Shown: positions 10,866-38,180 of the stretch, one piece after another
How the letters are laid out: each line of letters opens with the position of its first letter
How positions within the stretch are numbered: the first letter of the stretch is position 1
NCBI GenBank assembly: GCA_904398645.1
Contig: CAJFPH010000125.1
Coordinates: 1-39,034 of the forward strand
Reading direction: 5' to 3'
DNA length: 39,034 nucleotides
DNA from: Candidatus Allobutyricicoccus pentlandensis
GTDB lineage: Bacteria > Bacillota > Clostridia > Oscillospirales > QAMX01
Translations under genes and position numbers: made by a program
Notes under the pieces: model-generated
What the model was told of the DNA's origin: nothing
The model's database searches: none
The model's input: only the letters and a program-made list of their open reading frames with translations

Positions 10866-10900
10866 TCATTGTTCCAAGCGAAGAACAACGATCAAATAGA

Positions 10901-10930
10901 AAAAGCATCCGCACTGTGTGGATGCTTTTT
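10901..10930. terminator. Bidirectional intrinsic terminator between convergent genes
   Basis: AAAAGCAUCC-gcacugugu-GGAUGCUUUUU. There is an A-tract on one side and a U-tract on the other. Confidence 0.75.
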
Positions 10931-10994
10931 CTGTGCTTATAGATTTTAATTGAAAACAATTTACCGGAGTGCAAGCGTATATCCGAGCAGATTA

Positions 10995-11813: not shown

Positions 11814-11890
11814 GAAAAAGCGCCCCCATTTATCTGTTCATAAAATATATCTTACTTCTGTCAAAGGAAATTGTCAAGGAATCGGGCGGA

Positions 11891-22616: not shown

Positions 22617-22704
22617 TGTCATCCTCCTGCAATGTGAGCAATCCGCCGTTTCATACATTAGACGAATGATACGACTGATAAATTACGATGAATGAGATAT
22701 GAAA

Positions 22705-24817: not shown

Positions 24818-25981
24818 ATGAACAGAAAGGGAGCGTTTTACACGGGTGAATATCGTAATGTATTTGCGGAATACGGCTACGACCCGGCGGAAATCGACCG
24901 CCGCGTAGAGGAAACCTATGAAGAAATGTTTCATGGGCCGGCTGACCGTGTGCTTTTTCACCCGGATTGGCCGGACAAAGCGAGCTTTGAAGATACCGGT
25001 AATGTAGATGCCCGCACGGAAGGCATGAGTTACTCTATGATGATGGCCGTTCAAATGGACCGTCAGGAAGATTTTGACCGGCTCTGGAACTTCAGCATGA
25101 CTTTTATGCATCATAAGGATGGTCCGTACCGCGGCTATTTTGCATGGACAACGGCTTTGGACGGTACGCGCAATGCCGATGGCCCCGCGCCGGATGGCGA
25201 GGAGTATTATGCACTGGCGCTCTTTTTTGCATCCCATCGCTGGGGAGACCGGGAAGCACCGTATAATTACAGTGAGCAGGCCCGCGCCATTCTCCATGAG
25301 TGTGTTCACAAGGGAGAAAACGGTGAAGAAGGCCGCGCTATGTGGGATCCTGAAAATTATCTGATTCGTTTCGTCCCGGAGGCGGATTCAACGGATGCGT
25401 CTTATCATCTGCCGCATTTTTACGAACTGTTTGCTTTGTGGGCAAATGAAGAAGACCGTGCGTTTTGGAAGAAAGCGGCGGCGGCCAGCCGCGAATATCT
25501 TCATAAGGCTTGTCACCCGGTGACAGGCCTTGCACCGGAGTTTGGCGAATACGACGGTTCTCCGCGTAATTTCAATGGGCGCGGCGTCAGCCGTTATTAC
25601 TCCGACGCTTACCGCGTGCCTGCGAATATCGGCCTGGATTCCCTGTGGTTCAATGTCGATCCATGGCAGCACGAAAATAACGGAAAGCTTCAGAAATTTT
25701 TCTGTGAAACGGAGCCGGAGCATGACTACCGTGTATATATGATTGACGGTACGGTGATTGACGAGCCGGCACTGCATCCGGTCGGTATTATTGCGACAAA
25801 CGCTGAGGCGTCAATTGCGTCGTCACAATCGGAAGCGTACAAAGATTATGCACGCAGGTGTGTGGAACTCTTTTGGAACACGCCGCTGCGCACGGGGATT
25901 CGCCGCTATTACGATAACTGCCTTTATATGTTTGCCATGCTGGCGCTTTCCGGCCGTTACCGTATCTGGTGGCCGAAATAA
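24818..25981 (+). CDS. Glycoside hydrolase family 8, reducing-end xylose-releasing exo-oligoxylanase (Rex) type
   Basis: Long colinear similarity, from memory, to Bacillus halodurans Rex: 'GAFYTGEYRNVF', 'DARTEGMSYSMMMAVQMDR', 'GPAPDGEEYYALALFFASHRWGD', 'SYHLPHFYELFALWANEEDR', 'RRYYDNCLYMFAMLALSG'. Confidence 0.9.
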   Translation: MNRKGAFYTGEYRNVFAEYGYDPAEIDRRVEETYEEMFHGPADRVLFHPDWPDKASFEDTGNVDARTEGMSYSMMMAVQMDRQEDFDRLWNFSMTFMHHKDGPYRGYFAWTTALDGTRNADGPAPDGEEYYALALFFASHRWGDREAPYNYSEQARAILHECVHKGENGEEGRAMWDPENYLIRFVPEADSTDASYHLPHFYELFALWANEEDRAFWKKAAAASREYLHKACHPVTGLAPEFGEYDGSPRNFNGRGVSRYYSDAYRVPANIGLDSLWFNVDPWQHENNGKLQKFFCETEPEHDYRVYMIDGTVIDEPALHPVGIIATNAEASIASSQSEAYKDYARRCVELFWNTPLRTGIRRYYDNCLYMFAMLALSGRYRIWWPK

Positions 25982-26009
25982 GCTGTGTCACAGGAATAAT
26001 CAATAACTC

Positions 26010-26038
26010 GAGGGGACGTTTTGTCCCCTCTGTTTTTT
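26010..26038 (+). terminator. Intrinsic terminator of the GH8 gene
   Basis: GAGGGGAC-guuuu-GUCCCCUC followed by UGUUUUUU. Confidence 0.85.
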
Positions 26039-26116
26039 ATGGAAAGACGAAAAAATTTTTTAAGGTGTTTTCATAGAAGCGAAGTCCCTTGCCTCCTTTA
26101 GGGCGTTTCTCGGTCT

Positions 26117-26254
26117 TTAAATTTTCCCGCGGCAAATTATCAAGACAATTGCACAGACCACACCGAGTACAAGAGACGCCGCTGTGCAGGTCAGTAACGC
26201 ATCCCATGTAATTTGTCCTGTTAAAATTGTATCAAGCACAGACGAGCACCCCAT
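26117..26254 (-). pseudogene. DUF4956 family membrane protein, N-terminal fragment (first TM helix only)
   Basis: The product is MGCSSVLDTILTGQITWDALLTCTAASLVLGVVCAIVLIIC, then RGKI and a stop. It overlaps the VTC gene stop by 23 nt, as a second operon gene would. The rest of the family sequence is missing here and is found at 35329 on the other strand. Confidence 0.6.
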
Positions 26255-26948
26255 TCTTGCCAAGAACCTGTTCTTTATAGTAGGTTCCATATTTAGAAAA
26301 CGACGTCGGGTAAACCGCAAGCCGGTCCAAAAGTTCACAGAGCCAAAGCGGCACCGCATCTGGAACTTTGACTTCCATCAGATAGGCCGTGGGCGGGAGC
26401 AGGTTAAAACCCGGCTCCCGCGATTCAAGCCGTAGCGCGTCGCTCTGCCATCGGAGGTTGCTGTCAAAAGTGACGCGCACCCCGTCGTCCTCGCGACCGG
26501 TAAACGCGATGCGGTCATAAGAAAGCCTGACCGCTGGCGACGGTTTATAAAATTGAAGAAACCAATCGATTTCATGATGGATTTGTTCTTCGTTGGCGGG
26601 TTTGTACGTCCCTGCCAAATACGCGTAGGCATCCATAAGCGGCATGGCAATGCGGCGTTTATATACAATACCGCGATATTTTTTCTTTAGTTCCACAAAC
26701 GCCATGCTCTCTTGCGTCGTGACGCCATAGGTGCGCAGACGGAGCTTTTCCTTATAAACCGGCTTGTCTAAAGATGCACGGATCAGTCTGTAGTCCTCTG
26801 TATCGTAATAAAGGCTGTTGACCCTTGCCTCAGCGAAGCGGTCCGGTTTCATATAAGTCTCTAGTTGTCCCATAAGGGTTGCATATTGCTCTGTATTTAA
26901 CAGATACTTTATTTCACGGCGCTGAAACACCGTCTGATAATTCTGCAT
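26232..26948 (-). CDS. VTC domain (polyphosphate-polymerase-like, triphosphate tunnel fold) protein
   Basis: 'FQRREIKYLL', 'NSLYYDT.DYRLIRASLDKPVYKEKLRLRTYG', 'FVELKKKYRGIVYKRR', 'LMEVKV' fit bacterial VTC (PF09359-type) proteins. Confidence 0.82.
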   Translation of the reverse strand: MQNYQTVFQRREIKYLLNTEQYATLMGQLETYMKPDRFAEARVNSLYYDTEDYRLIRASLDKPVYKEKLRLRTYGVTTQESMAFVELKKKYRGIVYKRRIAMPLMDAYAYLAGTYKPANEEQIHHEIDWFLQFYKPSPAVRLSYDRIAFTGREDDGVRVTFDSNLRWQSDALRLESREPGFNLLPPTAYLMEVKVPDAVPLWLCELLDRLAVYPTSFSKYGTYYKEQVLGKNGVLVCA

Positions 26949-26987
26949 ATGGATACCTCCTTGCCGTTGTGGCTTTACTATACAGAA

Positions 26988-27032
26988 TTAACGTTAAATT
27001 AAACTGAAAAAATCCTTTCAGCCTTTTTTCAG
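26988..27032. promoter_or_regulatory. Palindromes in the divergent VTC / response-regulator control region
   Basis: A perfect 10-bp palindrome TTAACGTTAA (26988-26997). A perfect 9-bp inverted repeat CTGAAAAAA(27004-27012)/TTTTTTCAG(27024-27032) with a nested CTGAAA/TTTCAG. Confidence 0.4.
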
Positions 27033-27087
27033 GCAGGAGTGCTATTCTGTTTACAAATATGATGTTTTATAAAAAGGTGGGTAATTC

Positions 27088-27768
27088 GTGAACATCCTGA
27101 TTGTGGAAGATGAAAAAAGGCTTGCCGATGTGCTCGTACAGATCATGCGTGAAGCAAAATATCAGGCAGAGGCGGTTTACGACGGACAGGACGGTATTGA
27201 CTATGCGCTCGGTGGGGACTATGATGTTATCATCTTAGATGTCATGCTGCCGAAAAAGGATGGCTTTGCCGTCGTTCGTGCTCTGCGGGAATCCAAACGT
27301 GCGACTCCTGTCCTGATGCTCACCGCACGCAGCGATGTCTCCGACCGGGTCGCCGGCCTTGACTGCGGTGCCGACGACTATCTGACAAAACCGTTTGCAA
27401 CGGAAGAACTCCTGGCGCGTGTACGTGCACTCTCCTGCCGGCAGGGGGAAATTGTCCTGGACGTTCTACAGTACGGGGATTTGGAATTCTCCGTCGATAC
27501 ACATGATCTCAAGTGCAGCGCACGGTCTGTACGGCTCAGTTTGAAGGAATTTGAAGTTTTACGAATTTTAATGTCTGCACCCCGTACAATTGTTTCCAAA
27601 GAAATGCTGATCACAAAAGTATGGGGTTATGATTCCGAAGCTGAGGCAAACAATGTAGAGGCGTACATATCCTTTCTGCGGAGAAAGCTGCATTATTTGG
27701 GATCTCGCGTCTCTATCAACGTCATACGAAAAGTCGGATACCGGCTTGATGAGGATGCGTCATGCTGA
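27088..27768 (+). CDS. OmpR/PhoB-family response regulator
   Basis: Receiver domain 'ILIVEDE...DVIILDVMLPKKDG...LTAR'. Winged-helix C-terminus 'LSLKEFEVLRILM...VEAYISFLRRKL...IRKVGYRL'. GTG start at 27088. Confidence 0.9.
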   Translation: MNILIVEDEKRLADVLVQIMREAKYQAEAVYDGQDGIDYALGGDYDVIILDVMLPKKDGFAVVRALRESKRATPVLMLTARSDVSDRVAGLDCGADDYLTKPFATEELLARVRALSCRQGEIVLDVLQYGDLEFSVDTHDLKCSARSVRLSLKEFEVLRILMSAPRTIVSKEMLITKVWGYDSEAEANNVEAYISFLRRKLHYLGSRVSINVIRKVGYRLDEDASC

Positions 27769-28991
27769 AAAAACTACGCCGCCGGTTTGTAATCGTCGCT
27801 ATGACGCTCATTACTTCGGTTTTATTGCTGGTTTTTTTTGCATTAATTCTTTTCAATTATCAAAGATTCTCTGAGGATACTCAACAGGCATTGGAACGTG
27901 TTCTGCGGCTGCCTCCCGGAGAAAATGTGACTGGACCGGAAATCGGACTGCCTGGTGAGAGAGAGCCCGGGTTCGATGCCTTGGCCTTTAGCGTTTATCT
28001 GGATTCGGACGGCAACGTCCTGGGCGTCAGTAAAGGCGGTGTCTCCGTGTCGGACGAAACACTTGAAACCGCTGTGCAGCTGGCCTTGGCGGCGGAAAAT
28101 CCTACCGGTGTCCTGACCGGCCTGTCACTCCGGTATTTAAAACGCTCGGACAGTATGGGAATCCGAATTGCATTTGCCGACACATCGCGTGAAATGGAAA
28201 ATATGCGTAACCTCGTATTGAGCTCTCTTGCCGTCGGTCTGAGCGGCTGGGCTGCATTTCTCGTGATTACGCTATTCCTATCCCGGCAAATTATACGTCC
28301 CGTCGAACGTGCCTGGGCACAGCAACGCCGTTTCGTTGCAGATGCCTCACATGAGTTGAAAACTCCCCTTACCGTCATTTTGGCAAACGTCGATCTTTTG
28401 CTTCTGCATAAAAACGAGCCTCTGTGTGATCACATACAGTGGCTCGTCAATTCACGGGAAGAGGCCGTAAAAATGAAGGGGCTTGTGGAAGATATGCTTT
28501 TTTTGGCGCGGTCTGATTCCGGGCGGGAACAGCCCGTTTTAGCAGACGTTAACTTCAGCGATATCGTAACCAGCTGCCTGCTTTCTTTCGAGCCTGTCGC
28601 CTTTGAGCATAACGTCGCTCTGGAGTCAGAAGTAGAGCCGGAACTTCATATAAAGGGCGACGGCGTTCAGCTTTACCGCTTAATCGCTATTTTAGCTGAC
28701 AATGCCGTCAAATACGCGGGAGATGGTGGGCGTGTTATGATAACGCTTTCCCTGTCAGGGGGACATCCGCTTTTGCGTGTCCAAAACACCGGAGAAACCA
28801 TACCCAGTGAAGATATACCAAATGTATTCGACCGTTTTTACCGTGCCGACCAATCTCGTAACAGCGATCGAGGGGGCTATGGGCTTGGCCTCTCCATCGC
28901 AAAAGAAATTGCGGAACAACACAGGGCTAAAATTGAGTTAAGCTCCAGCCGCGATCATCTCACGGTTTTTCAAGTTCTCTTTTCAACATAA
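27762..28991 (+). CDS. Sensor histidine kinase (2 TM, HisKA + HATPase_c)
   Basis: H-box 'FVADASHELKTPLTVI', N-box 'LADNAVKYA', G-boxes 'DRFYRADQSR..GGYGLGLSIAKEI'. It overlaps the RR stop by 7 nt. Confidence 0.9.
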   Translation: MLKKLRRRFVIVAMTLITSVLLLVFFALILFNYQRFSEDTQQALERVLRLPPGENVTGPEIGLPGEREPGFDALAFSVYLDSDGNVLGVSKGGVSVSDETLETAVQLALAAENPTGVLTGLSLRYLKRSDSMGIRIAFADTSREMENMRNLVLSSLAVGLSGWAAFLVITLFLSRQIIRPVERAWAQQRRFVADASHELKTPLTVILANVDLLLLHKNEPLCDHIQWLVNSREEAVKMKGLVEDMLFLARSDSGREQPVLADVNFSDIVTSCLLSFEPVAFEHNVALESEVEPELHIKGDGVQLYRLIAILADNAVKYAGDGGRVMITLSLSGGHPLLRVQNTGETIPSEDIPNVFDRFYRADQSRNSDRGGYGLGLSIAKEIAEQHRAKIELSSSRDHLTVFQVLFST

Positions 28992-29023
28992 CTCATAGTC
29001 TTGCAAAGCGCAGACCACATAAA

Positions 29024-29066
29024 AATAAAGATGGGCGAGAATAAAAAATTCTCGCCCATCTTTATT
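29024..29066. terminator. Very strong hairpin / bidirectional terminator between HK and the second VTC gene
   Basis: A 19-bp perfect stem AATAAAGATGGGCGAGAAT / ATTCTCGCCCATCTTTATT with a 5-nt A loop. The flanks are A/T-rich. Confidence 0.8.
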
Positions 29067-29159
29067 TTCAACGCTTTTGCACGTCGCTCGTACCATTTCT
29101 ACAGCCGCACACTTATAAATCTGTATCCTCAGGAGATTTCCTTTTCCAAGATCCAGCGT

Positions 29160-29807
29160 TTATCTGGCAAGCCCATACCCCACAATGGAACGCAGAGGCT
29201 CCTGAAGCTGGCGGTCATACTTGACTTTTAAAACCAGCGTTCTGGCACTGTCTAGCGGCATTGCAGTAATCTCCGGTTCTAAAAAGCCCTCTGCGCGGTT
29301 GGTCGTACGGATATTGATATCCACGCCAATGCGCACATTACCGATACGTGACTCCAGCGCAATTTTATCATTGTCTATGACGTTCTTCGTTACAAACTCA
29401 TCGACTACGAGCTTCTGATAAAACTCGCGCACCAGCTCGTCCTCGCTCTCGGAAAGCCAGGTAAAATCGCGATTCAAAATAGCTTTGCACTCTTCGACCG
29501 TAATCGGTGTATACGCCGTCATGACCCGTTTTTCAAATGAACTTTCCTTGCAAAGCCGGAGCGTTCCAAGATCATGATTATAATACCTGATAAAAAACTG
29601 GTCGACGCGCTCACCGCGAAGTTTCCGGCTCCGCGAGGCGCGCACACGCTTCCGTCCGAAATACACAGTTCGGACATGATACTTTCCCTTTTCATCCGTA
29701 AACGGCGCGTTTGAAACGTATTCTTTCAGCTTTGCGAGCATCGGAACAAACTCGCCATGCGTTACATAGCGCTTAAACTCGTTTCTTACCGCTGTCACTT
29801 CCATCAC
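29160..29807 (-). CDS. Second, divergent VTC-domain-like protein (orphan paralogue)
   Basis: 'RNEFKRYV' (the E-x-K start of the tunnel fold), 'VRTVYFG', 'QFFIRYYNHDLGTLRLCKES', 'ITVEECKAIL', 'LVLKVKYD' match the Clostridial VTC-like pattern from memory. GGGAGA RBS is present. Confidence 0.65.
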   Translation of the reverse strand: MMEVTAVRNEFKRYVTHGEFVPMLAKLKEYVSNAPFTDEKGKYHVRTVYFGRKRVRASRSRKLRGERVDQFFIRYYNHDLGTLRLCKESSFEKRVMTAYTPITVEECKAILNRDFTWLSESEDELVREFYQKLVVDEFVTKNVIDNDKIALESRIGNVRIGVDINIRTTNRAEGFLEPEITAMPLDSARTLVLKVKYDRQLQEPLRSIVGYGLAR

Positions 29808-30050
29808 ATCTTTTCTCCCAAAAATGTCTTTTTATTTTATTATACTACGCAACCGACACATGCCGCTATATTGAAAAGTTATGAATACGTCCTTCTTTTT
29901 CGATATGTTTTTATTAAAAAACGGCAAAATCAACAAAACGGAGTCAATGCTTTAATACATATTTTACAATTTACCAAATTTCGTCATCCCATTTGGGAAA
30001 TAATCCGCATGTTATTATTCACCAGTTTATAGAGACATTAATCATGGCAT

Positions 30051-30092
30051 TCTAAAAAATAAATCCCACACCAGATAGGGATCTCGTGCGGG
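30051..30092 (-). terminator. Intrinsic terminator after the recG-GNAT pair
   Basis: On the minus-strand RNA: CCCGCAC GAGAU cccu AUCU GUGUGGG, followed by AUUUAUUUUUU. Confidence 0.7.
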
Positions 30093-30105
30093 AGCTGACA
30101 CTGTT

Positions 30106-30603
30106 TTATTCGGCAAGCTTTTTCAAATCTTCGTCCGTTACGCGATATGTTGTCCACTCATCAAGAGGTTTTGCGCCCAATGATTTATAAAACTTGATCG
30201 AATTCACATTCCAGTTCAGGCAGACCCATTCAAACCGGCGGCAATTTCTCGCAACGGCTATACGTGCTACCGTTTTAATCATGGCAAGGCCAATTCCCCT
30301 TCCGCGATACTCCGGTTTCACATAGAGGTCTTCCAGATACATTCCCGCTCGGCCCAAGAAGCTTGAAAAATTCATAAAGTAAATCGCATATCCGACGGCC
30401 TTACCTTCAAATATGGCAAGAAACGCCTCCGCGCTATGCTTTATAAGCAGAGATTCTTCCAGCACATCCTCTGCTACATCAAAAATATCCTCCAGATGCT
30501 CATACTCTGCAAGTTCATACAGCAAGCCGCGCAACGTGGAGAGGTCTTCCTTCTCCACGGGCTTCAAGGTCAAACCGGCAACATTTGTTTTCAGATCTTC
30601 CAT
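30106..30603 (-). CDS. GNAT N-acetyltransferase, diamine (spermidine/spermine) acetyltransferase-like
   Basis: 'LEDLYVKPEYRGRGIGLAMIK...RFEWVCLNWNVNSIKFYKSLGA' parallels SSAT-type GNATs. ATG 30603 (MEDLKTN) lies 4 nt after the recG stop. The track ORF is N-terminally over-extended. Confidence 0.82.
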   Translation of the reverse strand: MEDLKTNVAGLTLKPVEKEDLSTLRGLLYELAEYEHLEDIFDVAEDVLEESLLIKHSAEAFLAIFEGKAVGYAIYFMNFSSFLGRAGMYLEDLYVKPEYRGRGIGLAMIKTVARIAVARNCRRFEWVCLNWNVNSIKFYKSLGAKPLDEWTTYRVTDEDLKKLAE

Positions 30604-30607
30604 ATCT

Positions 30608-32638
30608 TTACGTCCTTTCTTTTTGAAACAATTGACTAATCTGATTGCGCAAAACGGTATTCTCCGGCGCGGAAAGCTGTGGGTCTTGCGCCAAAAGAGC
30701 AAGTGCGGCATCATGCGCGCTTGCAAGCAACGTCATATCGGCGCCAAGATCCGCAATTTTTAATCCCGGGACGCCGGACTGTCTTTGCCCAAAGAATTCG
30801 CCTGGTCCACGAATGCGCAGATCCTCACGAGCAATTTCAAAGCCGTCATTTGTCCGGCACATAGTTTCCAATCGTTCTCGTGTCATTTGTGAGGCAGAGC
30901 GCGTGAGCAGCACACAATACGATTTTTTATCAGAACGTCCCACGCGTCCGCGCAACTGATGCAATTGAGAAAGACCAAAGCGCTCGGCATTTTCAATTAC
31001 CATCATGTTGGCATTCGGAACATTCACGCCTACCTCAATCACTGTCGTCGCAACAAGCACCTGAACATTGCCGGCCACAAAGGCCTCCATCACTTCGTCT
31101 TTTTCGCGGGCGGACATTCTCCCGTGCAAAAGCTCTACGCGGTATCCGCCGAAATATCTTTGCCGCAGCTCGTCCGCGAATACCGCGGCGGCCTTCAAAT
31201 CCTCATTTTCCGTTTCCTCAATCACAGGGCAGACAATATACGCCTGCCTGCCGCGGTCAAGCTGACGGCGCATAAAGCCATATACCGCATCCCGGTACTC
31301 CTCCGACGGCGCGCGCGTATCAACCGGAATACGTCCCGGAGGCAGTTCATCAATCACAGAGAGATCCATGTCGCCGTATAACACCATCGCTAATGTACGC
31401 GGAATTGGGGTCGCGCTCATGACAAGCATATGCGGCGGAATCTCCGCCTTTTCGCGCAAACGTGCACGCTGCCTCACGCCAAAGCGGTGCTGCTCGTCCG
31501 TCACCACAAGCCGCAGCCGCGAAAACGTTACGCCCTCAGAAAGCAACGCGTGCGTACCGATCACAAAGTCAATCTCTCCGGATACCAGCCGTTCACGCGT
31601 CTGCCGGCGTTCTATAAGCGGCATTCCCGCCGTCAAAAGTCCTACACGGACGCCGAGCGGTTGCAAAAGCGCCGAAAGGTCCAAATAGTGTTGGCGTGCC
31701 AAAATCTCTGTCGGCGCCATCATGGCCGATTGCGCGCCGCCTTGGGTAGCAGCATAGGCAAGCGCAGCCGCCACCACCGTCTTACCGGAGCCAACGTCAC
31801 CCTGTACCAGGCGGCGCATAGCAATGCCGGCCGGCGACGTCATATCGGAAAGAGCCTCATCAATAGCACGATGCTGCGCATGCGTCAGTGCAAACGGGAG
31901 CGCCTGATAAAAAGGCTCCATGCTGGGCAGGGGCAACGTCTCTCCCGCTTCTCCGCGATCCGTCTTCAGCATGGCAAGACCCAGGGAAAGCGTAAAAAGC
32001 TCCTCAAATGCAAAACGTTTTCGCGCAGCTGTAAGCATTTCCACACTCTGCGGCGCGTGGATTTGCCGGTAGGCCTCATGGAGAGCCATCAGTGAGTATT
32101 TCTCAATAACCGCGGCCGGGAGCGTCTCCGGTATTTCATTTACATACGCCAGAGCATGCTCTACCATGCGGATCACGGCAGAGTTCGGGAGGCCCTCCGT
32201 CAGACGATAAACCGGTAGAATGCGTCCTGTCTTCAAATGGCTGTCCGGACGTTCCATAACGGGGTTTGTCAAAAAAAAGCGCCTGCCCATACGCTCGGCC
32301 TTTCCATAAAAGCGATACGTTTCCCCCTGCGAGGCGCTGAAATATTTTGCATTGAAAAAGGTCACCTGCAAAGATCCGGTATCGTCCGAAATGGTAAACT
32401 TGGAAATAGGCCGGCCGCCGCTCCCCCGGTACGACATGACAGGACTTGTAATTTCTGCACATACGCAGACGCTCTCACCCTCCGTCACTTCATTGATCGG
32501 AACCGTTCGGGTTCGATCCTCATAGGCTCGTGGAAAGTGACGCAGGAGATCGCCGACCGTTTCAATATGCAGCCGCTTCAAAAGTTTGGCGCGGGCCTCG
32601 CCCACGCCTTTTACGTATTGTACGCTACGGTCTATCAT
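30608..32638 (-). CDS. recG: ATP-dependent DNA helicase RecG
   Basis: Wedge-domain N-terminus 'VQYVKGVGEARAKLLKRLHIETVGDLL', Walker A 'GDVGSGKTVVA', 'DEQHRFG', 'QLHQLRGRVGR'. Confidence 0.93.
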   Translation of the reverse strand: MIDRSVQYVKGVGEARAKLLKRLHIETVGDLLRHFPRAYEDRTRTVPINEVTEGESVCVCAEITSPVMSYRGSGGRPISKFTISDDTGSLQVTFFNAKYFSASQGETYRFYGKAERMGRRFFLTNPVMERPDSHLKTGRILPVYRLTEGLPNSAVIRMVEHALAYVNEIPETLPAAVIEKYSLMALHEAYRQIHAPQSVEMLTAARKRFAFEELFTLSLGLAMLKTDRGEAGETLPLPSMEPFYQALPFALTHAQHRAIDEALSDMTSPAGIAMRRLVQGDVGSGKTVVAAALAYAATQGGAQSAMMAPTEILARQHYLDLSALLQPLGVRVGLLTAGMPLIERRQTRERLVSGEIDFVIGTHALLSEGVTFSRLRLVVTDEQHRFGVRQRARLREKAEIPPHMLVMSATPIPRTLAMVLYGDMDLSVIDELPPGRIPVDTRAPSEEYRDAVYGFMRRQLDRGRQAYIVCPVIEETENEDLKAAAVFADELRQRYFGGYRVELLHGRMSAREKDEVMEAFVAGNVQVLVATTVIEVGVNVPNANMMVIENAERFGLSQLHQLRGRVGRSDKKSYCVLLTRSASQMTRERLETMCRTNDGFEIAREDLRIRGPGEFFGQRQSGVPGLKIADLGADMTLLASAHDAALALLAQDPQLSAPENTVLRNQISQLFQKERT

Positions 32639-33057
32639 GCATCGTCACCAATTTCCCGTATGTCCGCCGCTTTTATAATACGCCGGATCTCCCGATCTAC
32701 AGACGGCGTAATTTTTTTTCGAAAAAGCGATAACGACAACGGTGCGAAAGGGCGCTCTCTGGTAAACTCATTGAGTCCTACAAAATACTGCATATAGGGG
32801 TTCTCCTGTATCTGCCGAACCGTTTCCGCGTCGGAGCACTTCAAATGGTCGCCAATCATCATCGCACCCAGCATCATCCGCAGAGGCTTCGCCGGCGCTC
32901 CGCGCGATGAATACAGTTTGGCAGACAAAACTCGTTCCAGTTCTTCCCAAGGCATAGCTCTAGCCCGGACCACCCACCGGTTTTCCGGATCGAGCATATC
33001 CTCCAGGGGATGGATTAATGTGTAAATATCCAATTGCCCGTCGGGAAGCTTATACAT
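32635..33057 (-). mobile_element. IS5-family transposase N-terminal (DUF772/InsH-N) fragment; no DDE domain
   Basis: 'GAPAKPLRMMLGAMMIGDHLKCSDAETVRQIQENPYMQYFVGLNEF...PFAPLSLSLFRKKI' is the typical DUF772 block. The ORF ends after 140 aa in an ATGA overlap with the recG start. I recognised no terminal inverted repeats. Confidence 0.65.
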
Positions 33058-33070
33058 GTCAACCCCTCAG

Positions 33071-33892
33071 TCATTCGTATTTTTCAATATCTACCCACGC
33101 CACACTGCCATCCAGAGGATGACAGAGATACATTCCAGCATTCTGTTTAAATTGCTCCACGCTGTCGCTAACAAAATAACGGCGCGTACCAATACGCCCT
33201 TCCGGAGCTGTCAAGCCATTTTTTTTCAGGGAATCTGCTACTGCTTTCGCGGCCTCCGCCCCCGAACTTATGAGCGCAGCACCAGGTACGCAACGTGAAA
33301 TAGCCTCCGAAAGCAACGGATAGTGCGTACAGCCCAAAATGATCGTGTCGGCGCCCGCCTCGCGTACCGGTGCCAGGTACTCCTCCGTCAAAATGCGTAC
33401 CAAAGGATCTTCCGGGCGGAAACGTCCGTTTTCCACAACGGGGACAAACAGCGGGCATGCCTTTTCTATCACCGTAATTTCCTGCGAGAGCCCTTTCAGA
33501 AAATTTCCGAACACATGACCTGAAATTGTGGCAGGTGTCGCCAGTACCGCAACGCGCCCTACACGCGTCACTTCCACAGCGCGGCGCGACGCGCCTTCGA
33601 CCACACCGAAAACAGGAATAGGCAATTCTTTCTGCAATGTTTCCAGAGCAGCATAGCTTGCCGTCCCACAGGCGATCAGCAATAGCTTCAAGTCAAAGCT
33701 GCAGAGAAACCTGGCGTCCTGCCGCGCATACTTGACAATTGTCTCACGGCTGCGCGTACCATACGGCACACGTCCCGTATCTCCAAAATAAACAATATCT
33801 TCATGCGGCAGCAGCGCCGACAGTTCACGCATGGCGGTCAGGCCGCCAATCCCGGAGTCAAATACGCCGATGGCGCGGTTATCCTCCCCCAT
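33071..33892 (-). CDS. murI: Glutamate racemase
   Basis: 'IGVFDSGIGGLT', 'IACGTAS', 'ILGCTHYPLL'. Confidence 0.92.
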   Translation of the reverse strand: MGEDNRAIGVFDSGIGGLTAMRELSALLPHEDIVYFGDTGRVPYGTRSRETIVKYARQDARFLCSFDLKLLLIACGTASYAALETLQKELPIPVFGVVEGASRRAVEVTRVGRVAVLATPATISGHVFGNFLKGLSQEITVIEKACPLFVPVVENGRFRPEDPLVRILTEEYLAPVREAGADTIILGCTHYPLLSEAISRCVPGAALISSGAEAAKAVADSLKKNGLTAPEGRIGTRRYFVSDSVEQFKQNAGMYLCHPLDGSVAWVDIEKYE

Positions 33893-33895
33893 GGC

Positions 33896-34954
33896 TCACC
33901 TATGAAACGCAAGCGTCACAAGACGGTCAATCAGCTCCGAATAGGAAATACCGGAAGCCTCGAAAAGTTGCGGATACATACTAATACTCGTAAAACCCGG
34001 AATGGCATTGAGTTCGTTAAACACAACAGCCCCATCCGTACGAAGGAAAAAGTCTACGCGCGCAAGACCGAAGCATCCCATGGATCGGAATATGCGTTCG
34101 GCAACACGACGCACACAGTCAGAAGCCTCCTGTGGGATACGCGCCGGAATAAAAAGCCGGGACTCCTCATCATCATATTTAGCAGAATAGGTATAGAACT
34201 CCTGCGCGGGTGCAATCTCCCCGACGCACGACGTCAGCACCTCGCCGTCCGCATCGCCCAGCACGGCCACTTCAATTTCCTGCCCAACGACACATTCCTC
34301 TAACACCAGTTTACGGTCAAAGCAAAGCGCCTCTTCTATGTATTGCTTTACATCTGCCACGGTTTTAGCTTTACCAACGCCAATAGAGGACCCCGCGCGA
34401 GCCGGTTTGACAAACAACGGGAGTCCCAACGTTTCAGCGGCATCTGCCGCAATGCCATCCGGATCCCTCTCAAATTTTCTCTGATGCAAAACAAGATACT
34501 TTGCCTGGTTAATCTGCTCGCGTTCGGCAAACATCTTGGTTATGACTTTATCCATGGTATTCGCCGCAGCCGCCACGCCGCACCCGACGTATGGGATACC
34601 CGCCAGTTCCAAAAGGCCCTGAATGGTCCCATCCTCGCCGTTTTTGCCATGCAAAACGGCAAACACCACGTCAACACGCTCCGTATGACCATCCTCATAA
34701 ATGAGGCCGTGAACAGCAGTGTCCGGTGAAATGCAGCAGGCTACGTTTTCCGCATGCTGTTCCCATGCGCCGCTTCTAATTGCAGCGGGATCCCCGCCGC
34801 GATACCGCAGCCAACGTCCGTCGCGCGTAATGCCGACCGTTATCATTTCATATTTTTCTGAGTTAATATGGTCAAGTACCGATTCCGTAGACCGGCAGCT
34901 TACTTCATGTTCCGTTGACGCGCCCCCGAAAAGGACACAAAGTTTATATCGCAT
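33896..34954 (-). CDS. ddl: D-alanine--D-alanine ligase
   Basis: 'VLFGGASTEHEVSCRS', 'HGKNGEDGTIQGLLELAGIPYVG', 'EVAVLG', 'ELNAIPGFTSISMYPQL'. Start is ATG 34954 with GGAGG upstream. The track ORF starts at 34990. Confidence 0.92.
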   Translation of the reverse strand: MRYKLCVLFGGASTEHEVSCRSTESVLDHINSEKYEMITVGITRDGRWLRYRGGDPAAIRSGAWEQHAENVACCISPDTAVHGLIYEDGHTERVDVVFAVLHGKNGEDGTIQGLLELAGIPYVGCGVAAAANTMDKVITKMFAEREQINQAKYLVLHQRKFERDPDGIAADAAETLGLPLFVKPARAGSSIGVGKAKTVADVKQYIEEALCFDRKLVLEECVVGQEIEVAVLGDADGEVLTSCVGEIAPAQEFYTYSAKYDDEESRLFIPARIPQEASDCVRRVAERIFRSMGCFGLARVDFFLRTDGAVVFNELNAIPGFTSISMYPQLFEASGISYSELIDRLVTLAFHR

Positions 34955-35328
34955 TTCAGGCAACCTCCAAAAGACCGCCGGGCATACCACCCGGACGCTT
35001 ATAAAGATACAGTATTATAATACCACTGCAGCCCCAAAAATGCAAACGAAAAGAAAATGTACATGCCCTGACGGCAACTATTTTCTCGTATATGCCCATT
35101 CCGGCAGCAAACGACGCTTTATCAGATCTTTCGTTTCAGCACCTCCACGGCATCTATCATACAACGTTGGCTTTCAGACAGGCCGCTTTTATATACTAAC
35201 TGCATAATGGAAGAAAAAACTGCGTCCCTAAAATCTGTGTGCCCACAATAAAGGTGTGAAACGGAAAGATACGAAAATAACGCACGGTAACATTGTCATA
35301 AAGCGCATCTCCGTTTCCAAACATATTC

Positions 35329-35895
35329 ATGTTTCGCAATACCTATACAAAAAGCTTTGTTATTACATTGGCGTTACTACCTGCAATTGTACAGGCGGTG
35401 ATCATGCTGGTAAATGGTAACCTGGGCACGGGCGTTGCTGTGATGGGAGCATTTAGTCTTGTGAGATTTCGTTCGGTACCGGGCAGTGCCAGAGAAATTT
35501 GCAGCCTGTTTCTCGCCATGGCGTTGGGTCTGGCAACTGGAATGGGGTATATTGGAATCGCTGTATTTTTGGCTGTCGTTTTGAATCTTGTACAGGTTTT
35601 GTTGGTGCTATCCAAATTTGGGGAAGGGGTGAGCGAAGAAAAAGAGTTGAAAATTACGATTCCGGAGAGCCTCGACTATACAGGCATTTTTGACGATATC
35701 TTTGTCACACATACCAGACGTGCAGAACTTATGCGGGTAAAGACCAGTAATATGGGTAGTCTTTATGAACTTTGTTACCGCGTCACGCTGAAAAACCGAA
35801 ATACGGAAAAACAGATGATAGACGAAATACGTTGCCGCAACGGAAATCTTACTATCGTATGCGGCAAGGTGCCGGTTAGCAGGGAAGAACTATGA
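35329..35895 (+). pseudogene. DUF4956 family membrane protein, C-terminal ~4/5 (lacks first TM helix)
   Basis: 'MFRNTYTKSFVITLALLPAIVQAVIMLVNGNLGTGVAVMGAFSLVRFRSVPGSAREI..LAMALGLATGMGY' is the conserved DUF4956 core. A stop lies 10 codons upstream in frame. It complements the fragment at 26117-26254. Expression as a truncated protein from ATG 35329 is still possible. Confidence 0.7.
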
Positions 35896-37880
35896 AAACG
35901 ATTCAAATGCAAAATAAATGGTGTTTGGTACTGGCGTGTATGCTGATTTGTCTTGGCGGGTGCAGCACACAGGCTTCTGTGACAGACGTTACATTACAGA
36001 ATTCTGCGGAGCATACCGACACAGCAGCGGAAAATACGGCAGGGACCGGCACAGTAGATTTTACTTCTACCGAAGTGACTTCCGGGGCGATTACAGTCAC
36101 GTATACGGACCGGGAATTGACGGGTGCGTATGATAGTCCGGTTACAGATCTGGAACTGGAAAATGAAGATGTTGTCATTTCATCTGCAGGGACTTATGTT
36201 CTGTCAGGAACGATTTCCGACGGGCAGATTGTTGTGGAAGCGGGGGAGGCCGACAAGGTACAGCTTGTATTAAACGGCGTATCCATTACAAATAGCGACG
36301 GCCCTGCAATTGAAATACGAAGCGCAGATAAAGTGTTTCTGACTTTGGCGGAGGGCAGCGAAAATATGCTGTCCGACGGAGAAGCTTATGTGCTTGCAGA
36401 CGGCGAGGATGAACCAAACGCTTGCGTCTACTCCAAAGCAGATTTATGCATAAATGGCGACGGGAATCTCACGATTTATGGAAATTATAATCATGGTGTG
36501 TATTCAAAAGACGATCTTGTCATTACGGGCGGCACACTTACCGTCAACGCGGTTAATGACGGATTAAAGGGCAAGGACTGTGTAGAAATATGCGGCGGTA
36601 CCTTTACGATTGAAGCAGGCGGCGACGGGATTCAATCCAACCATGCAGAGGATGCCGAGCGCGGCTATGTCTCCATTGACGGCGGTACGTTTGTAATTGT
36701 TGCCGGGTGTGACGGTATTCAGGCGGAAACCTGTTTGCAGGTGACATCCGGATCACTGCTGATTACAACCGGAGGAGGCAGTGCCAACGCCAGTGTGAAA
36801 CAGGATGGCAACTGGGGCTTTTGGGGTTCGCAGATCACTTCTGCGGAGGAAACCGAGAGCGCAAAGGGCCTGAAGGCAGGCGTTGCACTTTATATTGCGG
36901 ACGGAGAGATCTCGCTTGATTCGTCGGATGATGCGCTGCATGCCAATGGGGATATCACGGTTGCCGGGGGTACAATTGAGATCAGTTCCGGCGACGATGG
37001 TGTTCATGCGGATGATGCGCTGGTTGTAACCGGCGGGAGCATGGTCATCAATCAAAGCTATGAAGGAATGGAAGGCAATAGCGTTACTGTCTCCGGTGGT
37101 GAAATAGAAATAATTGCAAGCGATGACGGTATCAACGCTGCAGGCGGCAATGACGGATCTGCCCTGAACGGACGCCCGGGACAGGGATCTTTTGATACTG
37201 ACGCAAGTTCCTATATTCGAATCACAGGCGGTACGATCACAGTACGTGCGGACGGAGACGGAATCGATTCCAATGGCGGATTTTATGTGGAAGGTGGTGC
37301 GCTATTCATCCACGGAACAACAAGCGGAGCAGATGGATTCCTCGATTATGAGTCCGAGGCGGTGATTACGGGCGGTACTGTGATTGCGGCAGGAGGCGCT
37401 GCAATGGCGCAGGCCTTTGGAACCAATTCGACGCAATGCTCCATGCTTCAGACATTTGACACGCAGGTCGCGGCGGGGACAGTTCTGACTGTTTGCGATG
37501 CGGCGGGCGAAGCATTGGTTACATTTACGCCGGAGAATACCTATCAGGCGGTGCTTGTCAGCCTTCCGGAACTGACGCTGGGTGAAACTTATACCATCAC
37601 AGCAGGAGAGCAGAGCGTGGAGGCGACGCTGGAGACTGTCGCGACCGGTTCAAATGATGTGATGCCCGGAGGAAACGGCGGCATGCGTCCGAACGCCGGT
37701 ATGGGCGGTGAAATGCAGGAGGATGTACCTCAAATGCCGGAAGGCGAATTTCAAGATGGCTCTGTGCCGGACGGTACGGCGTCCGGCGTGGCGACTCCTT
37801 CGGAGAACGGGATACCGGAGACAGACGGGAACCCGTCTGATACCGGAATGTCGGAACCGGAGAATCATGCCGATCGATGA
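35892..37880 (+). CDS. Cthe_2159/DUF4353-type beta-helix carbohydrate-binding lipoprotein
   Basis: Lipobox 'LICLGGCS'. Many coils of the form GG(T/E)(I/F)xIxAxxDG(I/V)x. Low-complexity G/M/P/E tail. ATGA overlap with the DUF4956 stop. Confidence 0.78.
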   Translation: MKTIQMQNKWCLVLACMLICLGGCSTQASVTDVTLQNSAEHTDTAAENTAGTGTVDFTSTEVTSGAITVTYTDRELTGAYDSPVTDLELENEDVVISSAGTYVLSGTISDGQIVVEAGEADKVQLVLNGVSITNSDGPAIEIRSADKVFLTLAEGSENMLSDGEAYVLADGEDEPNACVYSKADLCINGDGNLTIYGNYNHGVYSKDDLVITGGTLTVNAVNDGLKGKDCVEICGGTFTIEAGGDGIQSNHAEDAERGYVSIDGGTFVIVAGCDGIQAETCLQVTSGSLLITTGGGSANASVKQDGNWGFWGSQITSAEETESAKGLKAGVALYIADGEISLDSSDDALHANGDITVAGGTIEISSGDDGVHADDALVVTGGSMVINQSYEGMEGNSVTVSGGEIEIIASDDGINAAGGNDGSALNGRPGQGSFDTDASSYIRITGGTITVRADGDGIDSNGGFYVEGGALFIHGTTSGADGFLDYESEAVITGGTVIAAGGAAMAQAFGTNSTQCSMLQTFDTQVAAGTVLTVCDAAGEALVTFTPENTYQAVLVSLPELTLGETYTITAGEQSVEATLETVATGSNDVMPGGNGGMRPNAGMGGEMQEDVPQMPEGEFQDGSVPDGTASGVATPSENGIPETDGNPSDTGMSEPENHADR

Positions 37881-37905
37881 AAAGCCTTCTAAAGTGAACG
37901 AATAC

Positions 37906-37953
37906 GTGGCGTGCGGGCACAAGCCTGTTTGTGTCCGCACGCCACATCTTTTT
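37906..37953 (+). terminator. Intrinsic terminator between convergent genes
   Basis: A 17-bp stem GUGGCGUGCGGGCACAA / UUGUGUCCGCACGCCAC (one G-U pair) with a 6-nt loop, followed by AUCUUUUUG. Confidence 0.8.
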
Positions 37954-37960
37954 GCCCCTG

Positions 37961-38164
37961 CTATTCGATATCCAGTTCCGGGGGAATGTCGAGTTCTTCC
38001 GAGACATATTTGCCGTTTTTCTTTCGTTGCCGGACGCATTCTGTCAAAAGATACTCAATCTGGCCGTTGACGGAACGGAAATCGTCTTCCGCCCAGGCGG
38101 CAATGGCGTTATAAAGTTTGGGAGAAAGTCGGAGAGGGACTTGCTTTTTCTGTTTTTCATTCAT
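37961..38164 (-). CDS. Arc/MetJ-type ribbon-helix-helix protein (often annotated HicB-like antitoxin)
   Basis: '[41 protein letters not shown]' fits an RHH beta-strand plus two helices. ATG 38164 has AGGAAGG upstream and lies 16 nt after the SPFH stop. Confidence 0.7.
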
Positions 38165-38180
38165 GAGAAAGCCTTCCTGC

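What the first reader, a model, noticed from the sequence alone, without database searches (positions are those of the whole stretch)
26117..35895. One DUF4956 gene split into complementary halves ~9.1 kb apart on opposite strands: footprint of a ~9.2-kb inversion
On the minus strand, directly after the VTC gene (23-nt overlap), a short ORF (26254->26117) encodes MGCSSVLDTILTGQITWDALLTCTAASLVLGVVCAIVLIIC and then runs into RGKI-stop. On the plus strand, 35329->35895 begins MFRNTYTKSFVITLALLPAIVQ...GAFSLVRFRSVPGS. As I remember the DUF4956 family, the first TM helix is followed immediately by a (Y)M(F/Y)RN.Y(S/T)KSF block. The two pieces therefore look like the N- and C-terminal parts of a single gene, with no overlap and no gap. 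The C-terminal piece is ATGA-coupled to the Cthe_2159-type lipoprotein gene. Flipping roughly 26.13-35.32 kb would recreate a colinear VTC -> DUF4956 -> beta-helix lipoprotein operon, with the two-component system divergent from it. The flip would also place ddl-murI-recG downstream of the GH8 terminator. I found no inverted repeat of 8 bp or more at the two junctions, only an ATA microhomology (26138-26140 / 35323-35325). There is no recombinase gene in the segment, although an IS5 remnant lies inside it. Possible explanations are a fixed illegitimate inversion that inactivated the module, a mis-assembly, or an unrecognised switch.
Basis: partly seen in the sequence, partly recalled or inferred. 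Interest (0 to 1): 0.8.

Follow-up and report, generated by a model that had tools for sequence, protein, structure and literature searches.

The report
Phage-integrase inversion splitting a membrane gene
A 9.2-kb stretch of this gut bacterium's chromosome has been flipped exactly between two landing sites of a temperate phage, which cuts one membrane-protein gene in half and disconnects a surface-protein gene; the event is real but looks like a one-off accident, not a new kind of switch.

Summary
Window 26144-35325 is a base-exact inversion relative to near-identical assemblies of the same species. Those assemblies carry GH8 -> ddl-murI-recG ... VTC -> intact 226-aa DUF4956 -> Cthe_2159.

The true crossovers are the dinucleotides AA (26142-26143) and TT (35326-35327), inside codon 38.

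It is not a mis-assembly. 8 of the 23 longest contigs carrying the identical GH8 protein show the inverted order, including three whose names look like long-read assemblies.

The inversion occurs only in one near-clonal lineage. All other clades, and 80 of 80 related species, have the intact order.

The mechanism can be inferred. In another strain the same TT is the junction with the end of a temperate phage. That phage family encodes a large serine integrase, has the attP core CTATC-AA-GATAG, and integrates at many sites.

A weight matrix built only from 23 integration junctions of that phage in other contigs was used to score the window. It ranks the two breakpoints 1st-6th and 4th-79th of 5,777 AA/TT positions.

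The best reading is a recent, scar-less inversion between two secondary attachment sites of this phage. It inactivates DUF4956 and probably silences Cthe_2159. I found no evidence for a programmed switch.

The parts
26144..35325 (.). Inverted segment (9,182 bp; 9,186 bp with the two core dinucleotides). It carries the VTC gene with the 5' part of DUF4956, RR, HK, VTC2, GNAT, recG, the DUF772 remnant, murI and ddl.
   Evidence: BLAST against L001 gives 99.98% identity in reverse orientation, with colinear 100% flanks. One true SNP lies at 34774.
26142..26143 (.). Left crossover dinucleotide AA. The hybrid site is GGCAAATTATC(26131-26141)-AA-GACAATTGCAC(26144-26154), i.e. the left arm of site 1 joined to the reverse complement of the left arm of site 2.
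   Evidence: Junction sequences compared base by base with L001. The same junction occurs in L009, L011, L013, L016 and L097.
35326..35327 (.). Right crossover dinucleotide TT. The hybrid site is CCAAACATA(35317-35325)-TT-CATGTTTCG(35328-35336), i.e. the reverse complement of the right arm of site 1 joined to the right arm of site 2.
   Evidence: The same junction occurs in L005 and L008.
26117..26254 (-). 5' fragment of DUF4956. Native codons 1-37 run 26254->26144, followed by 8 junction-derived codons (LIICRGKI) and a stop.
   Evidence: Translation compared with the intact P0001 and the L001 gene.
35329..35895 (+). 3' fragment of DUF4956, residues 39-226 of the intact protein. It starts at the native Met39. 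No plus-strand promoter-like site and no obvious ribosome-binding site lie upstream.
   Evidence: Pfam PF16316 E=1.7e-15, model positions 15-112. 100% identical to L001. Promoter scan.
26232..26948 (-). VTC-domain gene (polyphosphate-polymerase-like), first gene of the split operon.
   Evidence: Pfam PF09359 E=3.8e-43. It lies directly upstream of DUF4956 in 80 of 80 related loci.
35892..37880 (+). Cthe_2159-type beta-helix lipoprotein gene, ATGA-coupled to the DUF4956 3' fragment. In this arrangement it is cut off from the VTC promoter.
   Evidence: Pfam PF14262 E=6.4e-104. It follows DUF4956 in 66 of 72 related loci.
27088..28991 (+). Response regulator (27088-27768) and histidine kinase (27762-28991), divergent from the VTC gene. 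They travel with the inverted segment.
   Evidence: ORFs. Precomputed Pfam families for the same genes in L001.
26037..26207 (-). 56-aa ORF that spans the left junction. It exists only in the inverted form and was used as a marker for that form.
   Evidence: Exact-protein look-up finds it on 8 contigs, all with VTC next to GH8.

Best explanation
**What it is.** A recent chromosomal inversion with no base lost or gained. It joins two secondary attachment (attB-like) sites of a temperate phage that encodes a large serine integrase and integrates at many sites.

**The two sites in the ancestral arrangement.**
- Site 1, in the GH8-ddl spacer, reads GGCAAATTATC-AA-TATGTTTGG.
- Site 2, inside codon 38 of DUF4956, reads GCAATTGTC-TT-CATGTTTCG.
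- Their 2-bp cores have opposite polarity. Strand exchange at the cores therefore inverts the 9.2 kb between them and leaves no scar.

**How the exchange could have happened (inferred, not resolved).**
- The integrase acted directly on the two pseudo-sites; or
- an intermediate lysogen was involved. This could be a prophage at site 2 recombining with site 1. It could also be two oppositely oriented prophages at the two sites recombining homologously, followed by precise excision.

**Consequences.**
- DUF4956 is split into a 45-aa stub and a promoterless 188-aa remainder.
- Cthe_2159 is uncoupled from the VTC promoter.
- ddl-murI-recG, the two-component system and VTC keep their own upstream regions.

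**Shown:** the inversion, its exact breakpoints, its derived and polymorphic status, the phage-end junction at site 2, the phage's integrase gene, and the attB-like character of both breakpoints.

**Inferred:** that the integrase or a prophage made the inversion, and that the module is silenced.
For: 1. **Exact reciprocal inversion.** Only a 2-nt AA/TT overlap, and no gain or loss of bases.
2. **Same TT used by the phage.** In contig L107/L111, a diverged strain, the DUF4956 5' part ends at the same TT and continues into 80 nt that match the end of a mobile element with one mismatch.
3. **That end is a phage end.**
   - It is followed by about 23 unrelated flanks in 33 contigs, always right after CTAT[C/T]-AA/TT.
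   - The 10 flank ORFs scanned, from 6 contigs, are bacterial: nine are ordinary chromosomal genes, and one flank carries another mobile element.
   - In 9 contigs it is joined to the other end as CTAT[C/T]-AA-GATAG.
4. **The element is a phage.** It carries TerL, portal, a protease, PolA and VapE.
5. **It encodes a large serine integrase.** One viral contig holds both the X end and a 466-aa protein with Resolvase + Recombinase + Zn_ribbon_recom domains; a second viral contig holds the other phage end and a tblastn match to such a recombinase. Serine recombinases exchange strands at a 2-bp core (established knowledge).
6. **Both breakpoints score as phage target sites.** A weight matrix built only from the 23 foreign junction half-sites ranks site 1 at 1st-6th and site 2 at 4th-79th of 5,777 AA/TT positions in the restored window. 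This holds for matrix lengths 8-18 and three pseudocounts.
7. **The phage has been at this locus before.** In a third set of strains the module is deleted and replaced by 519 bp that are 91% identical to the phage's MazG-like and YqaI-like genes.
8. **The inversion is real and derived.**
   - It occurs in 8 of the 23 longest contigs carrying the identical GH8 protein.
   - It occurs only in the lineage that is 100% identical to L001 in the aligned stretches.
   - The displayed places of the other clades are intact, apart from the contig with the phage junction.
   - All 80 related species are intact.
Against: - No prophage or integrase gene lies in the window, and no contig shows a prophage at site 1.
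- Canonical large serine integrases recombine attP with attB, not two attB-like sites, so the direct route would be unusual. The route through a lysogen needs several steps.
- The left arm of site 2 scores weakly on its own (0.5 bits at matrix length 14).
- Two of the 23 junctions have TT rather than AA next to the phage arm, and some have T for C at position -1. The core is therefore inferred rather than mapped.
- Silencing of Cthe_2159 rests only on a consensus promoter scan.
Confidence: 0.72

Rival explanations
1. Random illegitimate recombination with 2-nt microhomology, for example mediated by breaks, gyrase or template switching. It would be unrelated to the phage and then fixed in one lineage.
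For: - Only 2 nt of microhomology, and no inverted repeat of 8 nt or more pairs the two junctions.
- No recombinase gene lies in the window.
- The inversion occurs in a single near-clonal lineage.
Against: - The crossover in DUF4956 is the very dinucleotide at which the phage end is joined in another strain.
- Both breakpoints are among the best matches in 39 kb to a target matrix built from unrelated junctions. Joint chance is roughly 1e-5 or less.
- Perfect conservation of every base at both junctions is atypical for break-and-join events.
Confidence: 0.12
2. A programmed, reversible inversion (phase variation). It would switch DUF4956 and Cthe_2159 on and off, driven by an unlinked host or prophage recombinase.
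For: - Both orientations exist in sequences that are otherwise identical: 0-1 SNP over 5-14 kb.
- The inverted form is common, 8 of 23 long contigs.
- The exchange is conservative, as with site-specific recombinases.
- The split gene precedes a surface lipoprotein gene, a typical target of phase variation (established knowledge).
Against: - There are no matching inverted repeats; the four half-sites are only loosely similar.
- No invertase gene lies nearby.
- Among the samples listed, none yielded both orientations, and contigs do not break at the junctions.
- The displayed contigs of the other clades, and all 80 related species, show no inverted order.
- The same locus is also hit by an irreversible deletion and by a phage insertion.
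Confidence: 0.08
3. An assembly artefact: the contig was mis-joined at two places.
For: None beyond the prior that metagenome-assembled contigs can be chimeric.
Against: - The left junction was assembled independently in at least 8 contigs from several samples and assemblers. Three have names typical of hifiasm, Flye and Canu, and one has only indel errors.
- The right junction occurs in two further samples.
- Both junctions are base-identical everywhere they occur.
Confidence: 0.01

Closest known systems
Chromosomal rearrangements between pseudo-att sites caused by phiC31 integrase in eukaryotic cells (own knowledge; not retrieved here)
   Same: A large serine integrase acting on degenerate, attB/attP-like genomic sequences produces inversions and translocations with exact exchange at a 2-bp core.
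   Different: That is an artificial setting in mammalian or insect cells. Here it would be a natural event in the phage's own bacterial host, fixed in a lineage, with the phage no longer present at the junctions.
Prophage- or IS-mediated chromosomal inversions by homologous recombination between inverted copies, as described for Streptococcus pyogenes, E. coli O157 and Staphylococcus aureus (own knowledge)
   Same: Mobile elements at two sites in opposite orientation flip the DNA between them. This is one of the two routes proposed here.
   Different: In those cases the element copies remain at the inversion ends. Here both junctions are clean hybrid target sites without any phage DNA.
Low-specificity ('multi-targeting') large serine recombinases, such as TnpX of Tn4451 and TndX of Tn5397 (own knowledge)
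   Same: - A Resolvase + Recombinase + Zn-ribbon protein.
- Many target sites that resemble the element's own ends.
- A 2-bp core, and a joint of both ends in the circular form.
   Different: The element here is a roughly 36-62 kb tailed phage, not a transposon. The core appears to be AA rather than GA. Activity has not been tested.
Invertons, including intragenic invertons (phase-variable inversions flanked by inverted repeats; own knowledge)
   Same: An inversion with one end inside a coding sequence changes what is expressed, and both orientations exist in the population.
   Different: Flanking inverted repeats, a cognate invertase and mixtures within one sample are all absent. At 9.2 kb, and carrying ddl, murI and recG, it is far larger than typical invertons.
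Genes interrupted by serine-integrase prophages that can excise precisely (active lysogeny; the skin element in sigK; own knowledge)
   Same: In strain L111 the phage end is joined inside DUF4956 at the same TT. Precise excision of a prophage there would restore the gene.
   Different: The window has no prophage there; the gene is split by the inversion. Only one phage-host junction was seen in L111, because the contig ends 80 nt into the phage.

Membership tests
DUF4956 (Pfam PF16316), as one gene split in two | The C-terminal piece matches the family model above the gathering score. | tested here: met
   57.6 bits against a cut-off of 30.6; residues 3-97 match model positions 15-112.
DUF4956 (Pfam PF16316), as one gene split in two | The N-terminal piece is the missing, non-overlapping start of the same gene and not a paralogue. 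| tested here: met
   - The fragment alone is too short for Pfam.
- Residues 1-37 are identical to the intact 226-aa orthologue in L001, and the DNA is 100% identical on both sides.
- There is no overlap and no gap.
DUF4956 (Pfam PF16316), as one gene split in two | Intact family members include the first transmembrane helix; they do not start at MFRN. | tested here: met
   The 120 listed hits are mostly 219-230 aa and cover 90-100% of the joined query. 70 of 80 related-species genes align from residue 12 or earlier.
Secondary attB site of the serine-integrase phage | Phage DNA is seen integrated at the site. | tested here: inconclusive
   - Site 2: met. The phage end is joined at the same TT in L107/L111.
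- Site 1: no prophage junction was found.
Secondary attB site of the serine-integrase phage | The sequence resembles the phage's other integration sites around an AA/TT core. | tested here: met
   Weight-matrix ranks are 1-6 for site 1 and 4-79 for site 2, out of 5,777 positions.
Secondary attB site of the serine-integrase phage | The phage encodes a large serine recombinase. | tested here: met
   L174:19853-21253 and L173:19820-21250 have Resolvase + Recombinase + Zn_ribbon_recom domains. L174 lies on the same viral contig as the X end (L156). L172, on the contig that carries the other end (L252), has a tblastn match to such a recombinase.
Secondary attB site of the serine-integrase phage | The integrase cleaves and exchanges strands at these sites. 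| not testable with these tools
   This needs a recombination assay.
Programmed inverton / phase-variation switch | Matching inverted repeats at the two ends. | tested here: not met
   No inverted repeat pairs the two junctions. Only the 2-nt core is shared in inverted orientation.
Programmed inverton / phase-variation switch | Both orientations within one population or sample. | tested here: inconclusive
   None of the listed samples yielded both forms, and contigs do not break at the junctions. Reads could not be mapped.
Programmed inverton / phase-variation switch | Recurrence in independent lineages. | tested here: not met
   The inverted form occurs only in the lineage 100% identical to L001. 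Of the displayed places in the other clades, 10 are intact, 1 carries the phage junction and 1 is too short to classify.
Programmed inverton / phase-variation switch | An invertase gene at or near the locus. | tested here: not met
   No recombinase is recognisable among the window's ORFs. The DUF772 remnant is present in both forms.

The most novel reading that the evidence does not exclude
The phage integrase itself catalyses recombination between two attB-like chromosomal sites, with no attP partner. Lysogens, or cells transiently infected, could then flip this 9.2-kb segment back and forth. That would make a phage-dependent on/off switch for a conserved VTC-DUF4956-Cthe_2159 surface module. 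It would also make 'scar-less' integrase-driven inversions a general source of structural variation in gut bacteria that goes undetected, because there are no repeats to search for.
Probability: 0.12. Interest if true: 0.75.

Novelty: new variant of a known kind. Interest (0 to 1): 0.45.

Why it matters
1. **A hidden class of structural variant.** This is a clean natural example of a chromosomal inversion whose only footprint is two hybrid phage target sites. Searches based on inverted repeats or IS elements would never flag such events, yet they can knock out genes.
2. **A possible tool.** It yields the attP joint, about 23 natural integration sites and the gene of a multi-site large serine integrase from human-gut phages. 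This is the type of enzyme sought for genome engineering.
3. **A handle on an uncharacterised module.** The same conserved module (VTC domain + DUF4956 membrane protein + Cthe_2159 lipoprotein) has more than 8,000 DUF4956 homologues and is syntenic in 80 of 80 species. In one species it is disrupted in three ways: by the inversion, by a junction with the phage end, and by a deletion that left a phage remnant. This could be a recombination hot spot, or selection against the module in the gut. Natural knock-outs are therefore available for studying its function.

Tried and rejected
Only weakly informative. The model starts near residue 30 of the protein, and the 45-aa fragment gives no hit. Full-length orthologues were decisive instead.
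- **Inverted or direct repeats at the junctions.** None of note. I first noticed by eye that the two sites agree at about 16 of 24 positions in direct orientation and considered Hin/Gin-type or Xer/dif-like sites. I dropped this once the phage end explained the similarity.
- **L107/L111 tail as evidence for a mixed population.** I first read it as the inverted junction in a second clade. It is not the GH8-side sequence; it is the phage end.
- **L109 and the 163-aa calls in L006 and L007.** These looked like further disrupted copies but are intact genes called short by the gene finder.
- **Organism identification.** It failed:
  - an exact 28-mer search found nothing in genome contigs;
  - the best species-level relative is only 80% identical, a 'Clostridiaceae bacterium' MAG;
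- **Phage identification.** There is no match in the INPHARED phage collection.
- **Finding the integrase.** It was not within about 9-12 kb of either phage end. It was found only by tblastn with an unrelated serine recombinase against all phage loci held.
- **Searches for a prophage at site 1, or for the reciprocal phage junction at site 2.** IMG/VR gave no hits. No contig in the GH8 context look-up shows one at site 1.
- **Literature on DUF4956.** Only incidental mentions. One paper lists it with CotH and a polyphosphate polymerase as accessory genes of Gram-positive Pel clusters (bioRxiv 10.1101/768473).

Full report

Yes. On the minus strand, an ORF starts at 26254, 23 nt inside the end of the VTC-domain gene (26232-26948), and stops at 26117. 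On the plus strand, a 188-aa ORF (35329-35895) is ATGA-coupled to a 662-aa Cthe_2159-type gene (35892-37880).

- VTC, E=3.8e-43.
- Cthe_2159, E=6.4e-104.
- GH8, a GNAT, a DUF772 transposase remnant, and a second, weaker VTC gene at 29160-29807.

The 188-aa piece hits DUF4956 (PF16316) at model positions 15-112, starting at its third residue. The 45-aa piece is too short to score. Joined to the other piece, it only extends the match back to model position 5.

**2. The decisive test: intact orthologues and their loci**

A search with the joined sequence found a 226-aa protein (P0001) at 99% identity and 100% coverage. It also found thousands of DUF4956 proteins; the 120 best listed are mostly 219-230 aa and cover 90-100% of the query.

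P0001 is encoded on metagenome contigs that are near-identical to the window. L001 and L002 read: GH8, ddl, murI, DUF772, recG, GNAT, VTC2, (HK and RR on the other strand), VTC, DUF4956, Cthe_2159, Band_7 ....

BLAST splits the window into three blocks against L001:

| Window | L001 | Identity |
|---|---|---|
| 25215-26143 | 1-929 | 100% |
| 26142-35330 | 10113-925 (reversed) | 99.98% |
| 35326-39034 | 10112-13820 | 100% |

Reading the junctions base by base gives the following.
- Ancestral site 1, between GH8 and ddl: ...GGCAAATTATC-AA-TATGTTTGGAAAC...
- Ancestral site 2, in DUF4956: ...GTGCAATTGTC-TT-CATGTTTCGCAAT...
- Window, left junction: ...GGCAAATTATC-AA-GACAATTGCAC... (AA = 26142-26143).
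- Window, right junction: ...CCAAACATA-TT-CATGTTTCGC... (TT = 35326-35327).

Nothing is lost or gained. The only shared bases in inverted orientation are the AA/TT dinucleotides.

The intact protein reads ...VCAIV(37)-F(38)-M(39)FRN. So the break is in codon 38. The C fragment begins at the native Met39. The only true SNP between the window and L001 across these blocks is at 34774.

**3. Not an artefact, and derived**

The right junction is present, base-identical, in contigs from two other samples (L005, L008).

The left junction is present in L009, L011, L013, L016 and L097. By BLAST it is also present in L010, which differs from L001 only by indels. Three of these contig names look like hifiasm, Flye and Canu output. 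That reading is an inference from the names.

A 56-aa ORF that spans the left junction is found on 8 contigs. Among the 23 longest contigs that encode the identical GH8 protein, 15 have GH8 -> ddl and 8 have GH8 next to the reversed VTC gene.

All inverted contigs are 100% identical to L001 in the aligned parts. So are several intact ones (L003, L004, L015).

More diverged clades show the following.
- VTC variants P0123 and P0124: 10 of the 13 places displayed are intact, 1 carries a phage junction (section 4), and 1 is too short to classify. The thirteenth is L104, whose BC junction is also intact.
- RecG variant P0136 and contig L002: the contigs that reach the DUF4956 junction are intact.

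In the 80 most similar species-level loci, VTC lies directly upstream of DUF4956 in 80 of 80. Cthe_2159 follows in 66 of 72 with room downstream.

The inversion is therefore real, derived, recent and confined to one near-clonal lineage, where it is frequent.

**4. What made it**

The clue came from contig L107/L111 (ERZ28618600, a diverged strain). Its GH8-ddl junction is ancestral. At its end, the DUF4956 5' part stops at exactly the same TT and continues into 80 nt of foreign sequence.

That sequence is the end of a mobile element.
- In 22 human-gut metagenome contigs and 11 IMG/VR viral contigs, the same about 80 nt end with ...GGCAAATTCAGCTAACTAT[C/T]. They are followed by AA (occasionally TT) and then by about 23 unrelated sequences.
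- The 10 flank ORFs scanned, from 6 contigs, are bacterial. Nine are ordinary chromosomal genes (transporters, an aminotransferase, S-layer and beta-helix proteins). One flank carries another mobile element.
- In 9 contigs the end is joined to the element's other end as ...CTAT[C/T]-AA-GATAG[C/A]CTGCCGGATTTGCC.... This is a pseudo-palindromic joint, as expected for attP.

The element is a tailed temperate phage. It carries large terminase, portal, Mu-F-like protein, prohead protease, family-A DNA polymerase, VapE primase-helicase, SNF2 helicase, DUF2800 and ParB-methyltransferases. It belongs to a very common family, with 595 or more IMG/VR relatives of its polymerase. It has no match in the INPHARED phage collection.

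No integrase lies near either end. However, one viral contig that carries the X end also encodes a 466-aa protein with Resolvase + Recombinase + Zn_ribbon_recom domains, that is, a large serine recombinase. A second viral contig carries the other phage end and a tblastn match to such a recombinase. Enzymes of this class exchange strands at a 2-bp staggered core (established knowledge). This fits the 2-nt AA/TT overlap at both breakpoints.

I then asked whether the breakpoints look like this phage's targets.
- I built a position weight matrix from the 23 unique host half-sites next to the phage end. None come from this species.
- I used it to score every AA/TT dinucleotide, both arms, in the window restored to the ancestral order.
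- Site 1 ranks 1st-6th and site 2 ranks 4th-79th of 5,777, across matrix lengths 8-18 and three pseudocounts.
- The chance that two random positions both rank this high is of the order of 1e-5 or less.

The phage has also been at this locus in a third group of strains (13 contigs read). There, L001 positions 7626-12310 are missing. This removes part of HK, all of RR, VTC and DUF4956, and most of Cthe_2159. They are replaced by 519 bp that are 91% identical to the phage's MazG-like and YqaI-like genes, in the orientation seen in L111. This is a decayed prophage with flanking deletions.

**5. Most likely mechanism**

Because the cores of site 1 (AA) and site 2 (TT) have opposite polarity, integrase-type exchange between them inverts the intervening DNA and leaves two hybrid sites. 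This is exactly what the window shows. Two routes fit.
- (a) Direct action of the integrase on the two attB-like sites.
- (b) A lysogenic intermediate. A prophage at site 2 could recombine through one of its att ends with site 1. Alternatively, two prophages at the two sites would necessarily be in opposite orientation. They could recombine homologously, and precise excision would follow.

I cannot distinguish these routes. No prophage at site 1 was found.

**6. Consequences**

These are inferred.
- DUF4956 is reduced to a 45-aa stub, plus a 188-aa remainder that lacks the first helix.
- The remainder and Cthe_2159 now face the ddl upstream region. No plus-strand promoter-like site is seen there.
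- ddl-murI-recG, VTC and the two-component system move together with their own upstream regions.

**7. Rivals**

- **Random microhomology-mediated inversion.** Disfavoured by the coincidence with the phage junction, the matrix ranks and the perfect reciprocity.
- **A programmed switch.** Not excluded, since identical sequences occur in both orientations. It lacks inverted repeats, a local invertase, recurrence in other clades and any sign of mixtures within a sample.
- **Mis-assembly.** Excluded.

**8. Comparison with known systems**

It works like integrase-driven rearrangement between pseudo-att sites, as known for phiC31 integrase in eukaryotic cells. It also resembles prophage-mediated inversions, but here the junctions are clean. 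The phage resembles elements with low-specificity serine recombinases such as TnpX and TndX.

It is not a member of the inverton or phase-variation class by the criteria tested.

The function of the VTC-DUF4956-Cthe_2159 module is unknown. The only literature context found lists DUF4956 with a polyphosphate polymerase and CotH as accessory genes of Gram-positive Pel loci (bioRxiv 10.1101/768473).

**9. Verdict**

The observation and the core of the interpretation are confirmed, and the artefact explanation is excluded. The event is best explained by a known class of enzyme acting in an unusual way.

- Novelty: a new variant of a known kind.
- Interest: moderate (0.45). It lies mainly in the scar-less footprint, in the multi-site integrase with its mapped sites, and in the repeated natural disruption of a widespread uncharacterised module.

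Noticed in passing
L107/L111 (ERZ28618600 scaffold_1391), last 80 nt; corresponds to window 26144 / 35326: In a diverged strain of the same species, the end of a temperate phage is joined inside DUF4956 at the same TT dinucleotide. This phage end reads AATTATC next to the core, whereas all 33 other copies read AACTATC. That 7-mer is identical to the arm of site 1 (GGCAAATTATC).
   Followed up: partly
L140, L142, L143, L144, L146 (relative to L001 7626-12310; window about 28630-26144 and 35328-37524): A third structural state of the locus, seen on 13 contigs. Part of HK, all of RR, VTC and DUF4956, and most of Cthe_2159 are deleted. They are replaced by 519 bp that are 91% identical to the phage's MazG-like and YqaI-like genes. 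Only an 87-aa stub of Cthe_2159 remains.
   Followed up: yes
L118 7175-7249; L125, L126, L130, L150-L152, L159: The attP-like joint of the phage: ...CATATAGGCAAATTCAGCTAACTATC-AA-GATAGCCTGCCGGATTTGCCTATATAG.... The arms are imperfect inverted repeats of about 25 nt. The integrase gene lies far from it, about 8 kb beyond the polymerase gene, rather than adjacent.
   Followed up: partly
L166 35-4696 versus L162 1709-6370 (IMG/VR contigs of the phage): The block with the DNA polymerase and VapE genes, together with the hydrolase/M20 block, has a different relative orientation in different viral contigs of the same phage. This could be a rearrangement inside the phage genome or an assembly difference.
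   Followed up: no
L007 (ERR12541625, 1,828 bp); window equivalents 26144-26450 and 35326-36846: A mosaic contig. Left of site 2 it carries the alleles of the diverged clade (16 mismatches in 300 nt, the nearest at -27). Right of it, it is identical to the window over 1,500 nt, whereas that clade has its first mismatch at +33. The switch therefore falls within 60 nt around the att-like core. It could be homologous recombination, a chimeric contig, or something related to the site.
   Followed up: partly
window 29160-29807 (-): A second, divergent VTC-domain gene (Pfam E=2.5e-07) lies inside the inverted segment, downstream of the histidine kinase on the opposite strand. It is conserved in all forms of the locus.
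   Followed up: no
window 32635-33057 (-): A 140-aa DUF772 (IS5-type transposase N-terminal) remnant overlaps the start of recG by 4 nt. It is present in the intact, inverted and deleted forms and in all clades examined, so it is an old fixed remnant that plays no part in the inversion.
   Followed up: yes
L160 4279-8018: One of the phage's integration sites lies next to another mobile element, which carries its own 655-aa large serine recombinase and a Mob_Pre relaxase.
   Followed up: no
window 17086-22068 (-) and 16187-17089 (-): A 1,660-aa alpha-2-macroglobulin-like protein gene sits immediately downstream of an ECF-type sigma factor gene (22092-22658, minus strand). It overlaps the start of a Memo-family gene by 4 nt. 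This was not examined further.
   Followed up: no
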